Sequence record: MN101221.1
Length of the DNA: 64,000 nucleotides
Source: Klebsiella phage KMI7
Reading direction: 5' to 3' (one strand)
The notes beneath the pieces are model-generated. The model did no database searches, was not told where the DNA came from, and saw only the letters and a list, made by a program, of their open reading frames with translations. Made by a program: the position numbers and the translations under genes. Shown here piece by piece: positions 9,483 through 20,465 of the stretch. Positions within the stretch are counted from its first letter, which is position 1. Every line of letters begins with the position of its first letter.

Positions 9483-11051
9483 ATGTCTAAGAAAAACGAA
9501 TTGATGGAAAAATGGAACGATCTTCTGGAGTCTCAGGAAGGCTTACCGGATATCGCTACCAAATCCAAAAAACAACTGATTGCTGCCATTATGGAAGCAC
9601 AGGAAAAAGACGCAGAAGTTGATCCGGTTTACCGCGACGAGAAAATCGTTGAATCCTTCGGTGGTTTCCTGGCGGAAGCTGAAATTGCTGGTGACCACGG
9701 TTACGACGCAACCAAAATCGCTTCTGGTAACTCAAGCGGTGCTATCACCAACATCGGCCCTGCTGTAATCGGTATGGTTCGCCGTGCGATTCCTAACCTG
9801 ATCGCGTTCGATATCTGCGGTGTTCAGCCTATGACTGGCCCTACTGGACAGGTGTTCGCTCTCCGCGCAGTGTACGGTAAAGATCCGCTGGCTTCCGGTG
9901 CTAAAGAAGCATTCCATCCGATGTTCTCTCCGGATAGCATGTACTCCGGTCAGGGCGCGGCTCCGAGCAACGGCTTTACCGAACTGGCTTCCGGTACTGC
10001 GATTGCTGACGGCGCTATCGTGTTCCACGATTTCGTTGAAACTGGTCGTGTGTTCCTCCAGAATGTTTCTGGCTCTCCGGTTACTGTAACTGGTTCTACC
10101 GCCGATGCTCTGGATGCTGCTGTTATCGCCGAACAGGAAAAAGGTACTCTGGCTGAAATTTCTTACGGTATGGCTACCAGTGTAGCAGAACTGCAAGAAC
10201 AGTTCAACGGTTCTACTGGCAACCCGTGGAACGAAATGGGCTTCCGTATCGATAAGCAGGTTATCGAAGCACGTAGCCGCCAACTGAAAGCACAGTACTC
10301 TGTAGAACTGGCTCAGGATCTCCGCGCTGTTCACGGTATGGACGCTGACGCCGAACTGTCTGCTATTCTGGCAACCGAAATCATGCTGGAAATCAACCGC
10401 GAAATCGTTGACATGATCAACTATACCGCACAGGTTGGTAAAACTGGTTTCACTCAGACCGTTGGCTCTAAAGCTGGTGCGTTTGACTTCCAGGATCCGA
10501 TTGATGTTCGTGGCGCTCGTTGGGCTGGTGAAAGCTACAAAGCTCTGCTGATTCAGATCGACAAAGAAGCAAACGAAATCGCACGTCAAACTGGTCGTGG
10601 TGCTGGTAACTTCATCATCGCTTCCCGTAACGTGGTTTCCGCTCTGGCTCGTATCGATAGCGGTATCACTCCGGCAGGTCAAGGTCTCCAGAAGACTCTG
10701 AACGTTGACACCACTAAAGCAGTATTCGCTGGTGTTCTGGGTGGCGTGTATAAAGTATACATCGACCAGTATGCACGTGGTGATTACTTCACCGTGGGTT
10801 ACAAAGGCGATAACGAAATGGATGCTGGTATCTACTACGCTCCGTATGTTGCGCTGACCCCGCTGCGTGGTTCTGATCCGAAGAACTTCCAGCCAGTAAT
10901 GGGCTTCAAAACTCGTTACGGTGTAGGTATCAACCCGTTTGCGAACTCTCGCTCTCAGGCTCCGTCCGACCGTATCACTTCTGGTATGATTACCAAAGAA
11001 ATGTTCGGTAAAAACGCATACTTCCGCAAGGTTTATGTGAAAGGGCTGTAA
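9483..11051 (+). CDS. 23: major capsid protein gp23
   Basis: 522 aa (T4 gp23 is 521 aa); strongly biased codon usage typical of a highly expressed gene; collinear similarity to gp23. Confidence 0.95.
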   Translation: MSKKNELMEKWNDLLESQEGLPDIATKSKKQLIAAIMEAQEKDAEVDPVYRDEKIVESFGGFLAEAEIAGDHGYDATKIASGNSSGAITNIGPAVIGMVRRAIPNLIAFDICGVQPMTGPTGQVFALRAVYGKDPLASGAKEAFHPMFSPDSMYSGQGAAPSNGFTELASGTAIADGAIVFHDFVETGRVFLQNVSGSPVTVTGSTADALDAAVIAEQEKGTLAEISYGMATSVAELQEQFNGSTGNPWNEMGFRIDKQVIEARSRQLKAQYSVELAQDLRAVHGMDADAELSAILATEIMLEINREIVDMINYTAQVGKTGFTQTVGSKAGAFDFQDPIDVRGARWAGESYKALLIQIDKEANEIARQTGRGAGNFIIASRNVVSALARIDSGITPAGQGLQKTLNVDTTKAVFAGVLGGVYKVYIDQYARGDYFTVGYKGDNEMDAGIYYAPYVALTPLRGSDPKNFQPVMGFKTRYGVGINPFANSRSQAPSDRITSGMITKEMFGKNAYFRKVYVKGL

Positions 11052-14009: not shown

Positions 14010-15509
14010 CTAAATTTCGATTTGTTTGATCACGTAGTCAAACTTTTCTTCATTGTAAATGCGTACTCGTTCGATTGCGTGTTTCATACCATAGTTTTTG
14101 TATGAATATTTATTTTTAGCATTTTTGGACTTTGCCAGCGTTGCTAAGTTATCAACCAAATCCCAAACAGTAGCAAGAGATTTAGAATCATGTTTACGCA
14201 GTACGCGCCCAATTGACTGTTTGACTATAACAGCAGATTTGCAAGGATGTCCGAAGATGATGTGATGCAGGTTCTTGACAGAAATACCTGTACTCAGTAC
14301 ACCAATAGAACCGATTACGATCAGCCCCTTCGTTGATTCCGCGATCCGTTTCATTTCGTTTCGCTCATCAATCCCCGTTTCCCCAGAAATGTATACAACG
14401 TTGTCATATACCTTTTTGAGTTGCTCATACAGCCATTTACCATGTTTGATTTGATTGAACATCACAAACACGTTTTCATCTTTTTCCCTTGCCAGTTTCA
14501 ACGCCAGCTTACAGATCCATGCGTTACGCCTGGTATGCGATGTTATATACTTGATTTCGCTTTGGTAATCAGCCCCCTTCATTTTCTTAATCTCATCCTC
14601 TTTATATCTCATGAAGATGGTATTAATTCGAAGGTTGGTAACTTGACCTTCCTGCATCAACCGATTTGTATCAACTGGCTTGAAGATTTGACCAAAAGCG
14701 CCAATGTATTGCATCATGTTTGCTTTGCCTTCTTTCAGAGAACCAGAAAGGCCAAACTTGAAAATACACTGATCCATTGTGTTGATGATCTTCTGTATGC
14801 TTTGTCCGGTTGATTTGTGGCATTCATCCACCATCAAACACATGAACTGCTGAAACCACTCAGGAGGCATTTTAACAGCCGATTGCCACGTAGACACGTA
14901 GATCAATGCATTACTGTTTTTAGCAGTTCCTGAACGTATTCCAAGCATTGCCTCGCGAGGTAAAAGGCGATAGTTGACAATATCACCGATCATCTGATCA
15001 ACAAGGGCGGTTGTTGGGACAATGATTAGTACTTTGCCTGTGTAATTTTCCAGACACCAACGAGATATCAACCCCTGAATAAGAGATTTACCCGCTGACG
15101 TTGGGAGGTTAAGCACAGCACGGCGGTTTTTAATCGCATGGAACACCGATTGTTTTTGATACCAATACGGATCAATCTGCTTGTTTCCGTCGTATACTGG
15201 GTGTTCTTCTAACCACTTGTCAAAATCTGGCTGGGTAATTTCTTCTGTTTCGTGGATCTTAGGATCCATCCAGATAGAATACCCGCGAGACTCCGCGAAT
15301 TTTGTTACAAGATAGGCTAAACCGTAGGGCAGTTTCCCGTTATAGTCCATCAAGTATATGTAGCCGTTCCATCCACCATATTTGTATTTTGCCTGGTACT
15401 GATAACCTGGCGGCTGGAAGCTGAAATAGTCGCGCAATTCATAGACTATGTTAGCCTCTGCCTGAATCTGCACATGACTAGTGTTAAGGAATTTGACTTC
15501 GATATCCAC
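14010..15509 (-). CDS. uvsW: UvsW DNA/RNA helicase (SF2, DExH)
   Basis: 499 aa; motifs LNLPTSAGKS (Walker A), MVDECHK (DExH), QSIGRVLRKH (motif VI); collinear with T4 UvsW incl. N-terminus MDI.V.F; apparent GTG start. Confidence 0.9.
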   Translation of the reverse strand: MDIEVKFLNTSHVQIQAEANIVYELRDYFSFQPPGYQYQAKYKYGGWNGYIYLMDYNGKLPYGLAYLVTKFAESRGYSIWMDPKIHETEEITQPDFDKWLEEHPVYDGNKQIDPYWYQKQSVFHAIKNRRAVLNLPTSAGKSLIQGLISRWCLENYTGKVLIIVPTTALVDQMIGDIVNYRLLPREAMLGIRSGTAKNSNALIYVSTWQSAVKMPPEWFQQFMCLMVDECHKSTGQSIQKIINTMDQCIFKFGLSGSLKEGKANMMQYIGAFGQIFKPVDTNRLMQEGQVTNLRINTIFMRYKEDEIKKMKGADYQSEIKYITSHTRRNAWICKLALKLAREKDENVFVMFNQIKHGKWLYEQLKKVYDNVVYISGETGIDERNEMKRIAESTKGLIVIGSIGVLSTGISVKNLHHIIFGHPCKSAVIVKQSIGRVLRKHDSKSLATVWDLVDNLATLAKSKNAKNKYSYKNYGMKHAIERVRIYNEEKFDYVIKQIEI

Positions 15510-15579
15510 TATGTGTATCCTATATACGGTTTATATGAATATTTATAGGCTAAATAATGATAAACATTGGAGAACTACA

Positions 15580-16158
15580 ATGAGTATTGATTACGAAAAG
15601 GTTGAAGGTTTCAAAGCCTTAGAACAAAAAGAAGCCAAATTACAGCTTGCTACCTACGCGCAAGAAACGTTTGATGTCAAACTGAACCGTCAGAAGTCAT
15701 TCGAAAATATGCTTGCTGATCTGGAAGCTGCCGTACCAGAAGAAAAACCAGAACTGTTGATCGACTCCCCTGATCCGGAAATTGTTACATACGAAGGTGA
15801 ACCATCCGTTCCTGATGTTGCTCCGGAAATTGCCGACCAGATTGAAATTGTTCCCGACGCTCTACAAGCTCCTGTAAGCGATTCTGAGACGGTTTCTGAT
15901 GAACTGGCATGGATGGAAGGGTTTACCCCGTCTATCATCATGATGGGCCGCTCTGTTTCGAATACTGGCTTTTATACGTGTCCGTATTGGATCTATGATT
16001 GGATGAAACAAAATCCGGATTGGTACAAGCATCCTGATGGTTGCCCTCATTATTCAGCGCGTCAAACCCTCAAATCGCTGGCATGGTACATGCACCGTGA
16101 TGGGATGGTTACTGTACGCGAAACCAGAAATAGCCAGTTCGACACGTTCAAAAAATAA
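15580..16158 (+). CDS. hypothetical protein (192 aa)
   Basis: track ORF trimmed to ATG with GGAGAACTACA SD; acidic Pro-rich middle, Cys/Trp-rich C-terminus; no family recognised. Confidence 0.5.
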   Translation: MSIDYEKVEGFKALEQKEAKLQLATYAQETFDVKLNRQKSFENMLADLEAAVPEEKPELLIDSPDPEIVTYEGEPSVPDVAPEIADQIEIVPDALQAPVSDSETVSDELAWMEGFTPSIIMMGRSVSNTGFYTCPYWIYDWMKQNPDWYKHPDGCPHYSARQTLKSLAWYMHRDGMVTVRETRNSQFDTFKK

Positions 16159-16601: not shown

Positions 16602-17171
16602 ATGAACTTAAATCACGAATGTTTAAAAGATTTGAGCGATGGTAACGAGATTGGTAACGTTATTTTTCTTGATATCGATGGCGTTCTAAATAATATGCGG
16701 TGCATGAAATTTGGTGAACATATGGACATCGAATGCGCACGACATTTACGCCGGATAGTGAATCACGCTAATTGTGATATCGTCATTTCCTCTACGTGGA
16801 GAATCGGCAACAGTACCCATAATCTACGTGAAATATTTTATCCGTGGGGATTGTATCGGATCATTGGTAAAACTTGCACTAACTTCCCTCATAGCACTGG
16901 AATGCGTGGTGATGAAATCAAGGCATGGATCGATACTTTCGGATGTAAAAACTATCTCATTCTTGATGATGACACCGATATGCTTTCTTCACAAAAAGAA
17001 CATTTTATTAAAACTGATGGGTTCGTTGGGTTGACCGAAGAACAATCCACTTATGCGATCCGTAACATTTTCGGGGTTACTACTCCTTTTTGTCCTGAAT
17101 GCAATGGGTATGGACGTGTTAACGGCTACGACAAATGCGGAACGTGTAACGGTAAAATACTCCGGCTATAA
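16602..17171 (+). CDS. HAD-superfamily phosphatase-like protein with C-terminal DnaJ-type CxxCxGxG zinc finger
   Basis: N-terminal FLDIDGVLNN (HAD motif I); C-terminus CPECNGYGRVNGYDKCGTCNGK (two CxxCxGxG units). Confidence 0.55.
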   Translation: MNLNHECLKDLSDGNEIGNVIFLDIDGVLNNMRCMKFGEHMDIECARHLRRIVNHANCDIVISSTWRIGNSTHNLREIFYPWGLYRIIGKTCTNFPHSTGMRGDEIKAWIDTFGCKNYLILDDDTDMLSSQKEHFIKTDGFVGLTEEQSTYAIRNIFGVTTPFCPECNGYGRVNGYDKCGTCNGKILRL

Positions 17172-17174
17172 ATA
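17167..17174 (+). promoter_or_regulatory. late promoter TATAAATA upstream of hoc
   Basis: GGCTATAAATAC, 25 nt upstream of hoc ATG. Confidence 0.6.
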
Positions 17175-17199
17175 CCAATAAACATAAGAGGTTAAATTT

Positions 17200-18261
17200 A
17201 TGGCAATTCCTTCTGTAACAATTAGCGCCAACAAAAACGAACTTTTGATTGGCGAAACTTTGACCTTAGAGGTTGAAACTACTGAATTAGATCCGGGTGA
17301 TGTGTTTCTGGCCTATCGTTGGCAAAAAGATGGTGTAGATATTCCAGACGCAACCGCCGATACTTACACAACTACGGTTGACGGTACAACTGCTGGCGAT
17401 TATACCCTGATCTTAAAACACGGTGCTGATGAAGAATCAGCAACAGAAACCACGTCTGATACAATCACCGTGACCACTTATCCGGTAATCGCATTTGGTA
17501 CTGATTTACCTGCAACAAAATCTGTTGTTACTGGTAAAGAACTTACCCTGACTGTTGCGGTAACTGGCGGTAAATCCCCGTATACCTATGTATGGAAACG
17601 TGGTTCTACTGTTGTTAGTGGTGATTCTGCAACCTTAACAATTAGCGCGGCTGCAAGTGGTGATGCAGGTTCATATACGGTAGAAGTGACGGATTCACTG
17701 GGTAACAGAAAAACTTCTAGTGCTTGTGCTGTTAGCGTTACGCCTGCTCTTGCGTTTGATAAAAATCTAAGCCCGACCGCTTCCGTAACACAGGATTCTG
17801 CATTGATCCTTAGTGTAACTGTATTGGGTGGTACTTCTCCTTATTCTTATGCATGGACTAAGGATGATTCTCCGGTTGGAGACGATGCGGATACTCTTAC
17901 AGTGGCAAGTGCGGCTCTGGATGATGCAGGTTCGTATAAAGTTGTAGTCACTGACGCGAATTCAGATACCATCACATCAACTGTATGTGTCGTAACTGTT
18001 AATCAAAATTCTGATGATCTCGTTTCTAAATGGACGGTTCACCCGATTCCGTGGCGTGATACCAGCTTTACCCCGATCGGTTATTGGGTACTTGATGAAA
18101 TTCTGTATCAGAAAGCACAGGGTAAAGATTGGAAAACTGATTATGCTGATTACAAGTATAGTGAGGAAGTACAAACGATCCTGAAAGCGTTCATGGAAAA
18201 TGGTGAATGTGAGATCCAGGATTCACGAAACGGCTATATTCATAAAATGAGTGAAATCTAA
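17200..18261 (+). CDS. hoc: Hoc, highly immunogenic outer capsid protein (Ig-like repeats + capsid-binding domain)
   Basis: tandem Ig-like repeats (YRWQKDGVDI / YVWKRGSTVV / YAWTKDDSPV); C-terminus matches T4 Hoc capsid-binding domain (HP.P.R...Y.W...V.DEI.....GKDWKTD...KY....ESRNGYI). Confidence 0.85.
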   Translation: MAIPSVTISANKNELLIGETLTLEVETTELDPGDVFLAYRWQKDGVDIPDATADTYTTTVDGTTAGDYTLILKHGADEESATETTSDTITVTTYPVIAFGTDLPATKSVVTGKELTLTVAVTGGKSPYTYVWKRGSTVVSGDSATLTISAAASGDAGSYTVEVTDSLGNRKTSSACAVSVTPALAFDKNLSPTASVTQDSALILSVTVLGGTSPYSYAWTKDDSPVGDDADTLTVASAALDDAGSYKVVVTDANSDTITSTVCVVTVNQNSDDLVSKWTVHPIPWRDTSFTPIGYWVLDEILYQKAQGKDWKTDYADYKYSEEVQTILKAFMENGECEIQDSRNGYIHKMSEI

Positions 18262-18271
18262 GAGGCTTTAA

Positions 18272-18547
18272 ATGGCAACTGAAAAATGGACTACGGTTCA
18301 TCCTATTCCGTGGAGAAATACCAGTTTTACATATCTTCCATACTGGCTATACGATATTATCGTTGATGCTTTTGAGAAAGGCGACGACTGGCGCGATTAT
18401 GCGGAAGAAAAATATAAATTAGAGTTTGATACTCTGAAAGAGGCGTTTGAAGATTATGGTGATATTCATGTAATCGAATCTCGTAATGGTAAACTGGTTA
18501 GTCTGTTGTCATTGACTCCTGCTCCTGAACCAGATCCTGACCAATAA
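18272..18547 (+). CDS. free-standing paralog of the Hoc C-terminal capsid-binding domain (91 aa)
   Basis: KWTTVHPIPWRNTSFTYLPYW...GDDWRDYAEEKYK...ESRNGKL parallels Hoc residues ~275-350. Confidence 0.65.
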   Translation: MATEKWTTVHPIPWRNTSFTYLPYWLYDIIVDAFEKGDDWRDYAEEKYKLEFDTLKEAFEDYGDIHVIESRNGKLVSLLSLTPAPEPDPDQ

Positions 18548-18560
18548 AATAAGGCAAACA

Positions 18561-19079
18561 ATGAATACACTTCTTTTTGATTTCGACGACACTTTAGCAG
18601 AATTTTCTCAGGCTTTTTATGATAAGTTCGGTGTACGTCCGGAAGGAACGCCAAAAGAACGATATGACGAAATGGCGGCTTCTTTGGTGCGTACTGATTT
18701 TTATAAAAACCTTCCCCGTATTCAGGCTGGGATTGACCTCCTTCAATGGAGTTTCCAACGCCGAATCGGTGATCCTGCTACTTTGCTGCTTCGCGCGGAA
18801 GCGGTCAGCCCTCTTTGGGTTATGAAAGAAAAACTGAACTATACAGATAAGATTTGCGCTGAACTGGGGATCTCTCGTCTCGATTTTAGTCGCATTGACT
18901 ATCCGGAACAGTTCGCAGAACACGCCTATCGTGGTGTTCTGATTTCCCGCAACCAGAAACATCTTGAAATCTGGAACAATTCTCATCTAGCTAATAAAGT
19001 TCCTGGTATTTTCCTTGCGGAAACCCTGGAAGAAAATATTCAGCTAGTCACAGAAGCGCTTGCAAAGGCTAATCAATAA
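18561..19079 (+). CDS. HAD-family 5'(3')-deoxyribonucleotidase-like protein
   Basis: LLFDFDDTL (DxDxT) and TDFYKNLPRIQAG motif shared with the convergent paralog. Confidence 0.6.
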   Translation: MNTLLFDFDDTLAEFSQAFYDKFGVRPEGTPKERYDEMAASLVRTDFYKNLPRIQAGIDLLQWSFQRRIGDPATLLLRAEAVSPLWVMKEKLNYTDKICAELGISRLDFSRIDYPEQFAEHAYRGVLISRNQKHLEIWNNSHLANKVPGIFLAETLEENIQLVTEALAKANQ

Positions 19080-19080
19080 C

Positions 19081-19111
19081 AAAAAAGGGAACCGCAATGG
19101 TTCCCTTTCTT
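19081..19111. terminator. bidirectional terminator GGGAACCGCAATGGTTCCC flanked by A-run/T-run
   Basis: 8-bp stem between two convergent genes. Confidence 0.75.
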
Positions 19112-19576
19112 TTACAATCTTTTTAATTCATCAAGCGCTGTTTTCTTATCACCAACAAAGAGGATCGCTTTACCTCCTGCTTTTCTGAAAGGCAACACCG
19201 CTTTTGCCCGATCGTCAAACAGGATTCCTTTACCAGCGAATGCTGCTTTTTCATGGCTACTTTTAACGTAGTGGAATTCCGGAACGTAACCCAATACTTT
19301 TTGTAATGCTTTACGTTTTTGTTCGGCAACACCGTCAGAATTGAATTTACCGACACTGGTTAGTATTGCTACATCACCAAGTGTTCTTAAATGATGGAAT
19401 AATTCAAATCCTTCTTTGATTGGTTCCAGATTTTCGTAGAAATCAGTTTTGGCAATTTTTGCTTTGCACTTTTTCAACTCATCTTCTGTCATCATCGAGG
19501 GTTCGCCATACATCGGCACAAATGAACCTTCCCAGTCGAACAATACACCATCCATATCAAAGAAAAACTTATTCAT
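19112..19576 (-). CDS. 5'(3')-deoxyribonucleotidase (NT5C family, HAD)
   Basis: FFDMDGVLFDWEGSF and TDFYENLEP closely match the NT5C signature (VDMDGVLADFEGGF / FFF.LEP). Confidence 0.7.
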   Translation of the reverse strand: MNKFFFDMDGVLFDWEGSFVPMYGEPSMMTEDELKKCKAKIAKTDFYENLEPIKEGFELFHHLRTLGDVAILTSVGKFNSDGVAEQKRKALQKVLGYVPEFHYVKSSHEKAAFAGKGILFDDRAKAVLPFRKAGGKAILFVGDKKTALDELKRL

Positions 19577-19625: not shown

Positions 19626-20465
19626 TCAACCCCAAGTATCAGTTTTCGGTGCGTATGCTGCAACTTTAGCCACAATTTCCTTATCCAGTTCAGCTACCGA
19701 TTTCTGAGGTTTACCACGGGCTTTAACTTTGATGTAGTTTGACTTAACAACAAACATCCCTTTGTTACTTGATTTCTTGATCTCGCTATCAACACCAACT
19801 TTGTTAAAGCTGATCCAAATGTCGCCGTCCATATACTGTTTAAGAGAATCACCCATGTTCAGGATCTTCGCCATAGTAAGGGCCGCGCCTTCGTGGGTAT
19901 CCATGAGAATTTCTTTAGGAACTACACGATCGCGTTTCTGGTTCTGCTGCATAGCAATATGCACATCGTTCATAACCCATACGATATGTACGTTTTCTTT
20001 CTTGTATCCCAGCTTTTCTACATCACGCGCGATGCTTGCCAGCTTGCTCATGCCTTTTAACGTTACGTCAAAGATGAGGTTAGGTTTACGATCTTCTGGT
20101 GCTGCCATAATACCGGAATAAACACGGTTTTGGTTTTTGTTGGAAATGTTGAAAACGTCGGCGATCACATGATGGAGGGTAGATACGTTTTCTGGGTTTT
20201 TGAGGTTCATTGTTTTGACATCATGACCCGTTTGTTTCTTGATCTCTGCTGCGAGTTTATCGCTACCCATTACAAGTTTTTTCAGGGCGTCAACGTCCAG
20301 GGTAATACCTTCGATGCCTAGCAGTTTTTCCAGTGTGAATCCTTTACCGGAACCAGCACCGCCAGCAAGAATAACAACCTGACCGAACTTAGGATAAGCA
20401 CGGCCTCCGAAGGTGATCAGCGCTTCGGTTAAGGTGCTTTCTGTGAATTGTTTAAATGACTTCAT
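19626..20465 (-). CDS. P-loop NTPase, kinase-like (zeta-toxin/PNK-like architecture), substrate unknown
   Basis: Walker A ILAGGAGSGKG; hhhhD segment NLIFDVT; not similar to T4 gp1 or Tk. Confidence 0.45.
   Translation of the reverse strand: MKSFKQFTESTLTEALITFGGRAYPKFGQVVILAGGAGSGKGFTLEKLLGIEGITLDVDALKKLVMGSDKLAAEIKKQTGHDVKTMNLKNPENVSTLHHVIADVFNISNKNQNRVYSGIMAAPEDRKPNLIFDVTLKGMSKLASIARDVEKLGYKKENVHIVWVMNDVHIAMQQNQKRDRVVPKEILMDTHEGAALTMAKILNMGDSLKQYMDGDIWISFNKVGVDSEIKKSSNKGMFVVKSNYIKVKARGKPQKSVAELDKEIVAKVAAYAPKTDTWG

What the first reader, a model, noticed from the sequence alone, without database searches (positions are those of the whole stretch)
18272..18547. Stand-alone paralog of the Hoc capsid-binding domain immediately downstream of hoc
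The 91-aa product parallels the C-terminal capsid-anchoring domain of Hoc nearly residue by residue. Compare KWTTVHPIPWRNTSFTYLPYW…KGDDWRDYAEEKYK…ESRNGKL with Hoc KWTVHPIPWRDTSFTPIGYW…GKDWKTDYADYKYS…DSRNGYI. It lacks all Ig-like display domains. A free anchor domain would compete for the same hexon-centre sites. It could tune how many Ig-bearing Hoc molecules decorate the capsid, or serve as a minimal decoration protein. I am not aware of such a split arrangement being described for T4.
Basis: seen in the sequence. Interest (0 to 1): 0.6.

Follow-up and report, generated by a model that had tools for sequence, protein, structure and literature searches.

The report
Display-less second Hoc capsid anchor
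A Klebsiella T4-like phage (KP15 group, not T4) carries, right after its normal Hoc head-decoration gene, a second and older type of Hoc gene that has lost its display domain and now encodes only the capsid-binding anchor, which probably occupies the same capsid sites as a blank.

Summary
ORF 18272-18547 encodes 91 aa that align with residues 276-345 of the upstream 353-aa Hoc (49% identity, E 3e-20). They also match the solved T4 Hoc capsid-binding domain in sequence (E 5e-10) and in predicted fold (8t1x_X, TM 0.68).

The window is a KP15-like Slopekvirus, not T4. The ORF is not a split-off copy of the neighbouring hoc. It belongs to a separate, older subfamily in which the anchor is N-terminal and carries a C-terminal cargo: a Big_2 Ig-like domain in Lemur_ER36, EcS1 and the RB16/RB43 group, a GDSL hydrolase in PG7/Pet-CM3-4. 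In the KP15 lineage the cargo is gone, leaving anchor codons 1-83 plus a variable 8-residue acidic Pro-rich tail.

The anchor keeps every family-invariant residue. Its dN/dS is 0.09-0.17. Within the 91-aa clade, variation falls in the tail, not the anchor.

It has its own Shine-Dalgarno sequence overlapping the hoc stop, and sits behind the single late-promoter motif.

Most likely it binds gp23 hexamer centres in competition with Hoc1. That is inferred, not shown.

Two-Hoc phages and N-terminal anchors were described by Fokine et al. (2023). I found no description of the cargo-less form, although GenBank annotates it.

The parts
17167..17174 (+). T4-type late promoter motif TATAAATA, 25 nt upstream of the hoc1 ATG. 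It is the only such motif before the two hoc genes.
   Evidence: 8 matches in the window, about 4 expected by chance, so the motif alone is weak evidence. The same motif lies at -32/-33 of the first hoc gene in RB16, CfP1 and Lemur_ER36.
17200..18261 (+). hoc1: conventional Hoc, 353 aa, with three Ig-like domains and a C-terminal capsid-binding anchor (residues about 276-353).
   Evidence: Pfam Ig_3 1e-20 and I-set 2e-14. PHROG 1149 'Hoc-like head decoration' 2.7e-64. The anchor clade with Lemur and EcS1 hoc1 has 100% bootstrap.
18260..18265 (+). Shine-Dalgarno sequence AAGAGG for hoc2. It overlaps the hoc1 TAA stop, with a 6-nt spacer to the ATG.
   Evidence: Read directly from the sequence. 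The same TAAGAGG junction is present in Lemur_ER36. Translational coupling is an inference.
18272..18520 (+). hoc2 anchor domain, codons 1-83: a complete Hoc capsid-binding domain of the N-terminal-anchor subfamily.
   Evidence: BLASTP to hoc1, E 3e-20. T4 Hoc 293-365, E 4.9e-10. AF2 pLDDT 83; Foldseek 8t1x_X E 1e-6, TM 0.68. All invariant and near-invariant family residues are kept. dN/dS is 0.09-0.17.
18521..18547 (+). hoc2 tail APEPDPDQ (codons 84-91) plus the TAA stop. It is acidic, Pro-rich, predicted disordered, and stands where the Big_2 cargo begins in relatives.
   Evidence: DNA alignment with Lemur_ER36. pLDDT about 42. At least 8 tail variants are listed, giving products of 85-93 aa.
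18561..19079 (+). Downstream NT5C-like 5'-3' deoxyribonucleotidase gene, conserved in all relatives with its own start. It rules out read-through into a cargo.
   Evidence: PHROG 2643, 6.5e-51. Same neighbour in KP15, Fraggle, Lemur, RB16 and L018.
19081..19111 (.). Terminator-like hairpin (13 pairs, then a T-run). It is the first terminator-like site after hoc1-hoc2 that is not inside a coding sequence.
   Evidence: One search detected it on the - strand. KP15's record annotates a terminator at the matching position on both strands.
9483..11051 (+). gp23 major capsid protein, the presumed binding partner. Its Hoc-binding loop is residues 328-346 (nt 10464-10520).
   Evidence: E 2.6e-242 to T4 gp23. 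The loop GSKAGAFDFQDPIDVRGAR matches T4 G326-R344 GSKAGVFDFQDPIDIRGAR at 17/19 positions. D336 and R344, the residues Fokine 2023 names as Hoc contacts, are both kept.

Best explanation
The ORF is hoc2, the second Hoc-like gene of KP15-type Slopekviruses. It belongs to the Hoc subfamily whose capsid-binding domain is N-terminal and normally carries a C-terminal cargo.

In this lineage an internal deletion removed the Big_2-type Ig cargo. What remains is an intact anchor (residues 1-83) and a short, unconstrained, acidic Pro-rich tail.

Inferred mechanism:
- It is transcribed late together with hoc1 from the promoter at 17167, and translated from its own SD that overlaps the hoc1 stop.
- It folds into a complete anchor domain.
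- After capsid expansion it docks at the centre of gp23* hexamers through the conserved beta-sheet face and the ESRNG loop, as T4 Hoc does.
- Each hexamer holds one anchor, so Hoc2 and Hoc1 would share the roughly 155-160 sites. Capsids would be mosaic, and Hoc2 would act as a blank that lowers the density of Ig fibres.

Shown here: identity, ancestry, fold, residue conservation and purifying selection. Inferred: expression, capsid binding and competition.
For: Identity and fold:
- 49% identity to the hoc1 anchor, E 3e-20.
- T4 Hoc 293-365, E 4.9e-10.
- AF2 pLDDT 83.4. The sole significant PDB fold hit is 8t1x_X, the T4 Hoc C-domain on the gp23* capsomer: E 1e-6, TM 0.68, rmsd 2.2 A.

Contact residues named in Fokine 2023:
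- H295/R300/W310/D313/E355-S-R-N-G359 correspond to H10/R15/W25/D28/E69-S-R-N-G73.
- By my count from those alignments, hoc1 and hoc2 agree at 12 of 16 T4 contact positions, against 49% overall.
- The gp23 Hoc-binding loop is 17/19 identical to T4.

Ancestry:
- PHROGs 14282, 11091 and 9703 match at profile position 1.
- The N-anchor clade has 97% bootstrap. Window hoc2 groups with Lemur and EcS1 hoc2 at 90%.
- Lemur_ER36, L028 and EcS1 have hoc1 followed by a 164-165-aa hoc2 at the same locus.
- The DNA alignment places the loss right after ...SLLSLTP.
- The Lemur-type hoc2 model is an anchor plus a Big_2-type Ig domain.

Constraint:
- NG86 dN/dS of the anchor is 0.09 (vs L028) and 0.16-0.17 (vs Lemur). 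dN to the outgroup RB16 is 0.224 for the window and 0.233 for Lemur, so there is no acceleration.
- Within the 91-aa clade the anchor has 3 synonymous and 2 non-synonymous changes. The 8-codon tail has 3 non-synonymous changes (Fisher p = 0.005).
- The exact protein is on 409 contigs. Of the cluster's 34 distinct sequences, those listed show 8 or more tail variants (products of 85-93 aa) against 6 rare anchor variants.

Expression signals: SD AAGAGG, a 10-nt intergenic gap, and no terminator between the genes.

Precedent:
- Anchor-only ORFs are the sole Hoc-like gene next to inh in three other lineages.
- In vitro, several Hoc fusions can share one T4 capsid according to their ratio to binding sites (PMC3012670).
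Against: - I found no virion proteomics, cryo-EM or transcript data for any Slopekvirus in the library. Expression and incorporation are therefore unproven.
- The genomes carrying the 91-aa form are at least 97% identical at this locus, so their uniformity partly reflects recent common ancestry.
- Most of the dN/dS path may predate the cargo loss.
- The polymorphism test rests on few events.
- Hoc is dispensable in T4. RB43's only Hoc-like gene carries an amber codon, so loss of function is tolerated.
- Hoc2 differs from Hoc1 and T4 at four contact positions (Y21, I68, E69 vs D in hoc1, K74), so equal affinity or an identical site is not guaranteed.
- The tail varies freely, so it contributes no evident function.
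Confidence: 0.55

Rival explanations
1. Neutral remnant. The ORF is what is left of hoc2 after a deletion. It may still be made, but it has no selected role and will eventually be lost. Its conservation reflects the youth of the KP15 clade.
For: - Hoc is non-essential (PMC3012670).
- RB43 tolerates an amber codon in its only Hoc-like gene.
- The locus is plastic: hoc1 is 177, 353, 376, 445 or 469 aa in close relatives.
- The tail is clearly unconstrained.
- The genomes with the 91-aa form are at least 97% identical here.
Against: - Anchor dN/dS is 0.09-0.17, with no rate acceleration relative to cargo-bearing lineages.
- Within the post-deletion clade, amino-acid and length variation concentrates in the 8-codon tail. 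The 83-codon anchor stays intact on more than 400 contigs.
- All family-invariant residues and the SD are retained.
- Anchor-only genes persist independently in other lineages.
Confidence: 0.25
2. It is functional but is not a simple competitor. Hoc2 would bind a different subset of sites (for example particular hexamer environments of the prolate head), or would act during assembly, for instance shielding hexamer centres or keeping capsids dispersed through its negative charge, rather than diluting Hoc1.
For: - Hoc2-type and Hoc1-type anchors are old, distinct subfamilies with fixed differences at four contact positions: P23 vs G, I29 vs E, I68 vs Q, K74 vs Y.
- T4 Hoc shows site-dependent orientation at vertex-proximal hexamers, and its acidity is proposed to disperse capsids (Fokine 2023).
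- Hoc2 has pI 4.4 and net charge about -10.
Against: - In the RB16/CfP1/Fraggle group the hoc2 type is the only Hoc-like gene at the locus, and elsewhere the hoc1 type is. Each type presumably uses the general hexamer-centre site.
- Only one gp23 gene with a T4-like Hoc-binding loop was identified.
- No evidence points to a second site.
Confidence: 0.12
3. Recent tandem duplication, or a split, of the anchor-coding 3' end of the adjacent hoc gene. This is the reading implied by 'stand-alone paralog of the Hoc capsid-binding domain'.
For: The two genes are adjacent and the domains are colinear at 49% identity.
Against: - The ORF is 71-88% identical to N-terminal anchors of hoc2 genes in other phages, but only 49% identical to its neighbour.
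- The two anchors fall in separate clades with 97% and 100% bootstrap support.
- The same gene pair exists, with hoc2 carrying a cargo, in Lemur_ER36, L028 and EcS1.
Confidence: 0.02

Closest known systems
T4 Hoc (highly immunogenic outer capsid protein), C-terminal capsid-binding domain; PDB 8t1x, 5vf3
   Same: Homologous domain (E 4.9e-10) and same predicted fold (TM 0.68). The ESRNG loop and the H/R/W/D contact residues are conserved, and the gp23 binding loop is conserved in the same genome. It sits in the hoc neighbourhood next to inh and uvsW.
   Different: T4 Hoc has three Ig-like domains N-terminal to the anchor and is the only hoc gene in T4. This protein is the anchor alone, with the anchor at the N-terminus and an 8-residue tail, and it is encoded next to a full Hoc.
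Second Hoc-like proteins with an N-terminal anchor: Enterobacter phage PG7 511-aa protein (Fokine et al. 2023, PMC10385173) and its Pet-CM3-4 homologue
   Same: Same N-terminal-anchor subfamily (54% identity, same clade). It is a second Hoc-like gene in a phage that also has a conventional Hoc.
   Different: Those proteins carry a GDSL/SGNH hydrolase cargo (Pfam Lipase_GDSL_2, 1e-17) and lie at another locus. The window protein carries nothing.
hoc2 of Klebsiella phage Lemur_ER36 (XNS44610, 164 aa), Escherichia phage EcS1 (165 aa), metagenomic L028 (164 aa), and the sole Hoc of the RB16/CfP1/Fraggle group (167-246 aa)
   Same: Orthologous locus and anchor (71-88% identity), the same TAAGAGG junction after hoc1, and the same downstream NT5C-like gene.
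   Different: They retain one or two Big_2-type Ig-like domains after ...TP. The window gene ends 8 codons after that point.
Phage T5 pb10 (PMC5292684)
   Same: pb10 is a decoration protein that binds at hexamer centres (abstract). [quoted passage not shown] That is analogous to the ancestral hoc2 layout.
   Different: No homology to pb10 turned up: no pb10 chain passed the thresholds in the PDB sequence or fold searches. It is a different phage family, and pb10 keeps its Ig domain.

Membership tests
Hoc capsid-binding (anchor) domain, T4 Hoc domain 4 | Sequence homology to T4 Hoc residues about 281-376 | tested here: met
   phmmer vs PDB: 5vf3_Z/8t1x, E 4.9e-10, query 8-79 aligned to Hoc 293-365. 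PHROG Hoc-like families match at 2.5e-62 to 6.6e-18.
Hoc capsid-binding (anchor) domain, T4 Hoc domain 4 | Four-stranded sheet plus two helices, the fold of the solved domain | tested here: met
   AF2 pLDDT 83.4, elements E-E-H-H-E-E. Foldseek 8t1x_X: E 1e-6, prob 1.00, TM 0.68/0.65, rmsd 2.2 A. The next hit has E 0.75.
Hoc capsid-binding (anchor) domain, T4 Hoc domain 4 | Conserved ESRNG loop and the His295, Arg300, Trp310 and Asp313 equivalents | tested here: met
   E69-S-R-N-G73, H10, R15, W25 and D28 are present. All 14 invariant or near-invariant columns of the 30-sequence alignment are kept.
Hoc capsid-binding (anchor) domain, T4 Hoc domain 4 | Binds one copy per expanded gp23* hexamer, at its centre | not testable with these tools
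   Indirect only: the gp23 loop G326-R344 is 17/19 identical in the window's gp23. No proteomics or cryo-EM was found.
Hoc proper (display fibre: Ig-like domains plus anchor) | One or more Ig-like display domains attached to the anchor | tested here: not met
   The product is 91 aa. There is no Pfam Ig hit. The model has only the anchor and a disordered 8-residue tail. It is therefore filed as an anchor-only derivative, not as a Hoc fibre.
Hoc proper (display fibre: Ig-like domains plus anchor) | Late gene in the hoc-inh-uvsW neighbourhood | tested here: inconclusive
   The neighbourhood criterion is met: uvsW 14010-15509 and inh 15481-16158. A late promoter motif is present only upstream of hoc1. 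Timing was not measured.
N-terminal-anchor Hoc-like subfamily (PHROG 14282/11091/9703; PG7 511-aa type) | Anchor begins at the N-terminus and groups with other N-anchor proteins | tested here: met
   The profile matches start at position 1. The clade has 97% bootstrap. Identity to members is 54-88%.
N-terminal-anchor Hoc-like subfamily (PHROG 14282/11091/9703; PG7 511-aa type) | C-terminal cargo domain (Big_2-type Ig or GDSL hydrolase) | tested here: not met
   The ORF stops 8 codons after the anchor, and the next gene starts 13 nt later. The cargo is present in relatives.

The most novel reading that the evidence does not exclude
Anchor-only Hoc proteins are a selected, recurrent device rather than debris. 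Co-expressed with a full Hoc, a blank anchor would set the density of Ig fibres on the capsid, and through that its adhesion, aggregation and antigenicity. On its own, as in contigs L018, L020 and L022, it would be a minimal decoration that caps hexamer centres. The hoc1-hoc2 cassette, which is exchanged between otherwise near-identical phages, would then be a modular surface-tuning locus.
Probability: 0.3. Interest if true: 0.55.

Novelty: new variant of a known kind. Interest (0 to 1): 0.4.

Why it matters
KP15-type Slopekviruses are among the most frequently isolated Klebsiella phages proposed for therapy. Hoc is the main antigenic and mucus-adhering surface component of T4-like capsids.

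If a cargo-less anchor really shares the hexamer sites with Hoc1, then the surface density of Ig domains is genetically tunable in nature. That density bears on immunogenicity, mucin adherence and aggregation.

It would also show that an anchor of about 83 residues with a free C-terminus is sufficient for capsid binding. That would be useful for phage-display and vaccine platforms that now rely on full-length T4 Hoc.

If it is only a remnant, the locus still documents how fast decoration genes gain and lose domains.

Tried and rejected
- **Recent duplication or split of hoc.** Rejected by the anchor phylogeny and identity pattern.
- **Read-through or frameshift into a downstream cargo.** Rejected. 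Only 13 nt separate the stop from the conserved NT5C-like gene, which has its own start in all relatives.
- **Cargo-less form as the ancestral state.** Less parsimonious. The window gene nests (90% bootstrap) among cargo-bearing hoc2 genes whose Big_2 domains are mutually alignable. The root of the N-anchor clade stays ambiguous, because P0090 is also cargo-less.
- **A functional acidic tail.** Not supported. The tail varies in sequence and length.
- **First single-sequence search of the 5.8-billion-protein set.** It gave only 3 hits, so the word index was too insensitive. The exhaustive representative search and a profile search were needed. The profile search returned mainly short proteins, so it is not a fair census of architectures.
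- **Pfam and NCBIfam.** Neither has a model that hits the anchor.
- **Literature.** Searches for Slopekvirus virion proteomics, cryo-EM or any discussion of this ORF found nothing relevant. The key biochemical paper, Sathaliyawala et al. 2010, is not held.
- **Sigma-70 promoter scan.** Uninformative: 9 sites found, 9.0 expected.
- **First tree script.** It timed out and was redone with a faster distance routine.

Full report
**1. What is there.** ORF 18272..18547 (+) encodes 91 aa. It starts 10 nt after the stop of a 353-aa Hoc-like gene at 17200..18261.
- BLASTP of the two products gives 35/71 identities (49%), E 3e-20, over Hoc residues 276-345.
- Pfam sees Ig_3, I-set and Ig_2 in the 353-aa protein and nothing in the 91-aa one.
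- PHROGs puts both in 'Hoc-like head decoration' families.

**2. Whose genome.** The locus is 97.5-99.5% identical to dozens of Klebsiella, Enterobacter and Raoultella phages of the KP15 group, genus Slopekvirus, family Straboviridae.
- The 91-aa protein is 100% identical to KP15 gp196, which RefSeq calls 'Hoc-like head decoration'.
- Other records call it 'hoc_1', 'large outer capsid protein' or 'hypothetical protein'.
- It is not T4, which has a single hoc.
- The exact sequence is on 409 contigs of the large protein collection.

**3. It is a bona fide Hoc anchor domain.**
- Against PDB sequences the only real hit is T4 Hoc residues 293-365, E 4.9e-10.
- An AlphaFold2 model built on a 39-sequence alignment has pLDDT 83.4 and pTM 0.70. 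Its strands are at 10-12, 17-22, 65-69 and 75-77, its helices at 24-35 and 46-62, and residues 84-91 have low confidence.
[quoted passage not shown] The next hit has E 0.75.
- Fokine et al. 2023 list the T4 residues that contact gp23* or hold the binding loop. H295, R300, W310, D313 and E355-S-R-N-G359 correspond to H10, R15, W25, D28 and E69-S-R-N-G73.
- All 14 invariant or near-invariant columns of a 30-sequence anchor alignment are kept.
- The window also carries gp23 at 9483..11051 (E 2.6e-242 to T4 gp23). Its Hoc-binding loop, T4 G326-R344, is 17/19 identical, including D336 and R344.

**4. It is not a copy of its neighbour.** The PHROG profiles that fit best (14282, 11091, 9703) match from profile position 1 and extend 80-400 residues beyond the query. 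In those families the anchor is N-terminal.
- An exhaustive HMMER search of 1.84 billion representatives found 75 clusters. A minority have the anchor at residues 1-89 (P0004-P0010) and most have it C-terminal.
- In a neighbour-joining tree of 41 anchors, the N-terminal anchors form one clade (97% bootstrap). Within it the window protein groups with hoc2 of Lemur_ER36 and EcS1 (90%).
- The anchor of the window's 353-aa Hoc sits in a different clade with the hoc1 genes of those same phages (100%).
- The two genes are therefore old paralogue types, here called hoc1 and hoc2.

**5. What was lost.** At the same locus (inh / 103-aa gene / HAD_SAK_2 gene / hoc genes / NT5C-like gene) relatives show the following.

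| Phage or contig | hoc1 | hoc2 |
|---|---|---|
| Lemur_ER36 | 469 aa | 164 aa |
| L028 (metagenomic) | 376 aa | 164 aa, 88% identical to the 91-aa protein |
| EcS1 | 445 aa | 165 aa |
| RB16, CfP1, Fraggle_ER53 group | none | 167-246 aa |

- The DNA alignment with Lemur shows colinearity through ...ESRNG(K/R)LVSLLSLTP. About 220 nt coding the C-terminal domain are then missing from the window, replaced by APEPDPDQ-stop.
- The Lemur-type protein models as the anchor plus an Ig-like sandwich (pLDDT 88). Its best PDB matches after 8t1x are Big_2 domains. Pfam Big_2 scores 21.8 bits, just under the 22.8 cut-off.
- In the Karamvirus Pet-CM3-4 the same kind of anchor carries a GDSL hydrolase. That is the architecture Fokine et al. 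2023 reported for PG7, alongside the remark that PG7 and Muldoon each encode two Hoc-like proteins.
- So the two-Hoc arrangement and the N-terminal anchor are known. I did not find the cargo-less form discussed anywhere.

**6. Is the leftover anchor still under selection?**

*Between lineages.* Nei-Gojobori dN/dS of the anchor is 0.09 (window vs L028), 0.16-0.17 (vs Lemur) and 0.14 (vs RB16).
- dN to the outgroup RB16 is 0.224 for the window and 0.233 for cargo-bearing Lemur, so there is no acceleration.

*Within the 91-aa clade.* Twelve DNA alleles were sampled from all identity classes.
- The 83-codon anchor shows 3 synonymous and 2 conservative non-synonymous changes (D38E, I65V).
- The 8-codon tail shows 3 non-synonymous changes (Fisher p = 0.005). 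Anchor pN/pS is about 0.17.
- Of the cluster's 34 distinct sequences, those listed show at least eight tail variants, including products of 85, 88 and 93 aa. They show six rare anchor substitutions, none at an invariant column.
- This pattern fits a constrained anchor and a free tail.

*Limits.* There are few events, the clade is young, and much of the between-lineage path may predate the deletion.

**7. Expression signals.** TATAAATA lies at 17167-17174, 25 nt before hoc1. No other copy occurs until 37493.
- The same motif sits at -32/-33 of whichever hoc gene comes first in RB16, CfP1 and Lemur.
- The hoc1 stop overlaps a strong SD (TAAGAGG), 6 nt before the hoc2 ATG.
- No terminator-like site lies between the two genes. 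The first one outside coding sequence is at 19081-19111.
- Co-transcription and coupled translation are therefore likely, but they are inferred.

**8. Mechanism proposed.** Established T4 knowledge: Hoc binds as a monomer at the centre of each expanded gp23* hexamer, up to 155 per head. It is dispensable, and several Hoc fusions can share a capsid according to their ratio to sites (PMC3012670; PMC10385173).
- Both window anchors keep the contact set. By my count from the alignments they agree at 12 of 16 T4 contact positions, against 49% overall.
- Only one gp23 gene, with a T4-like loop, was identified.
- The simplest reading is that Hoc2 occupies hexamer centres in competition with Hoc1, as a blank. 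It is acidic like Hoc (pI 4.4, charge about -10).
- I put this at about 0.55.
- The main rival, a tolerated remnant, gets about 0.25. Hoc is non-essential, RB43's sole Hoc-like gene carries an amber codon, and the locus is very plastic.

**9. Wider pattern.** A profile search turned up other short anchor proteins:
- P0090, 100 aa, an N-anchor plus a PE-rich tail;
- P0010, 121 aa, an anchor plus an acidic PE tail;
- P0098, 95 aa.

On their contigs each is the only Hoc-like gene beside inh. The contigs are L018, which has the window's synteny but no hoc1, L020 and L022. Cargo loss with anchor retention has therefore happened repeatedly. That mildly favours a function for bare anchors, but the contigs are partial and expression is unknown.

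**10. Verdict.**
- Observation: confirmed.
- Interpretation: partly supported.
- Novelty: a domain-minimal variant of a known family, in a known two-Hoc setting, already annotated but apparently undiscussed.
- Interest: moderate. It would rise if virion proteomics or cryo-EM showed mixed occupancy.

Noticed in passing
window 17200-18261 (hoc1); L001:3457-3990: hoc1 varies in length among near-identical Slopekvirus genomes. KP15's is 177 aa, equal to window residues 1-94 plus 271-353, a clean loss of two Ig domains. Only 53-54 of the 111 records that carry the 91-aa hoc2 have those two domains. Lemur_ER36 has 469 aa and L028 has 376 aa.
   Followed up: partly
window 16602-18547 vs L014: The HAD_SAK_2-hoc1-hoc2 cassette is mosaic. 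Between the window and Lemur_ER36 the flanking genes have dS 0.03-0.06, while genes inside the cassette have dS 0.7-1.2. This suggests the decoration module is exchanged between otherwise almost identical phages.
   Followed up: partly
L012:3001-3504 (RB43) vs L009 (RB16): The RB43 reference genome has an in-frame amber codon (TAT to TAG, codon 62) in its only Hoc-like gene. The rest of the gene is intact and nearly identical to RB16. GenBank annotates only the 61-aa stub as 'Hoc large outer capsid'.
   Followed up: partly
L018:4001-4303, L020:3673-4038, L022:4001-4288: Anchor-only Hoc-like ORFs of 100, 121 and 95 aa are the sole Hoc-like gene next to inh in three metagenomic T4-like contigs. 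Two of them end in acidic Pro/Glu-rich tails.
   Followed up: partly
proteins P0105, P0106 (metagenomic): These have a Hoc anchor, then a PEPDPD-type linker, then a short hydrophobic C-terminus INPL(T/S)L(I/V)VM. This unexplained third architecture is 120-121 aa long.
   Followed up: no
L003:4001-5536 (Cronobacter phage Pet-CM3-4): A 511-aa protein has an N-terminal Hoc anchor and a C-terminal GDSL/SGNH hydrolase (Pfam Lipase_GDSL_2, 1e-17), so an enzyme may be displayed on the capsid. It has the same architecture as the PG7 protein noted by Fokine et al. 2023.
   Followed up: partly
window 18561-19079 (+) and 19112-19576 (-): Two convergent NT5C-like 5'-3' deoxyribonucleotidase paralogues flank a terminator-like hairpin at 19081-19111. 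They are 32% identical over the first 75 residues.
   Followed up: partly
window 16602-17171 (+): A 189-aa protein combines a HAD_SAK_2 domain (2.7e-29) with a C-terminal DnaJ-type CxxCxGxG zinc-finger motif. It lies immediately upstream of hoc1 and inside the mosaic cassette.
   Followed up: no
window 19626-20465 (-): A 279-aa P-loop protein gives a Zeta_toxin-family hit (9.4e-8). It belongs to PHROG 5268, function unknown, and is conserved beside the hoc locus in all relatives examined.
   Followed up: no
protein P0129 (WP_349043487.1): An 85-aa fragment identical to this phage protein is filed in NCBI as 'hypothetical protein, partial [Brucella melitensis]' on a 5.4-kb contig. This is probably phage contamination of a bacterial assembly.
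   Followed up: no
window 18272-18520: Neither Pfam-A nor NCBIfam has a model that recognises the Hoc capsid-binding domain. Only PHROGs and the PDB sequence search identify it.
   Followed up: yes
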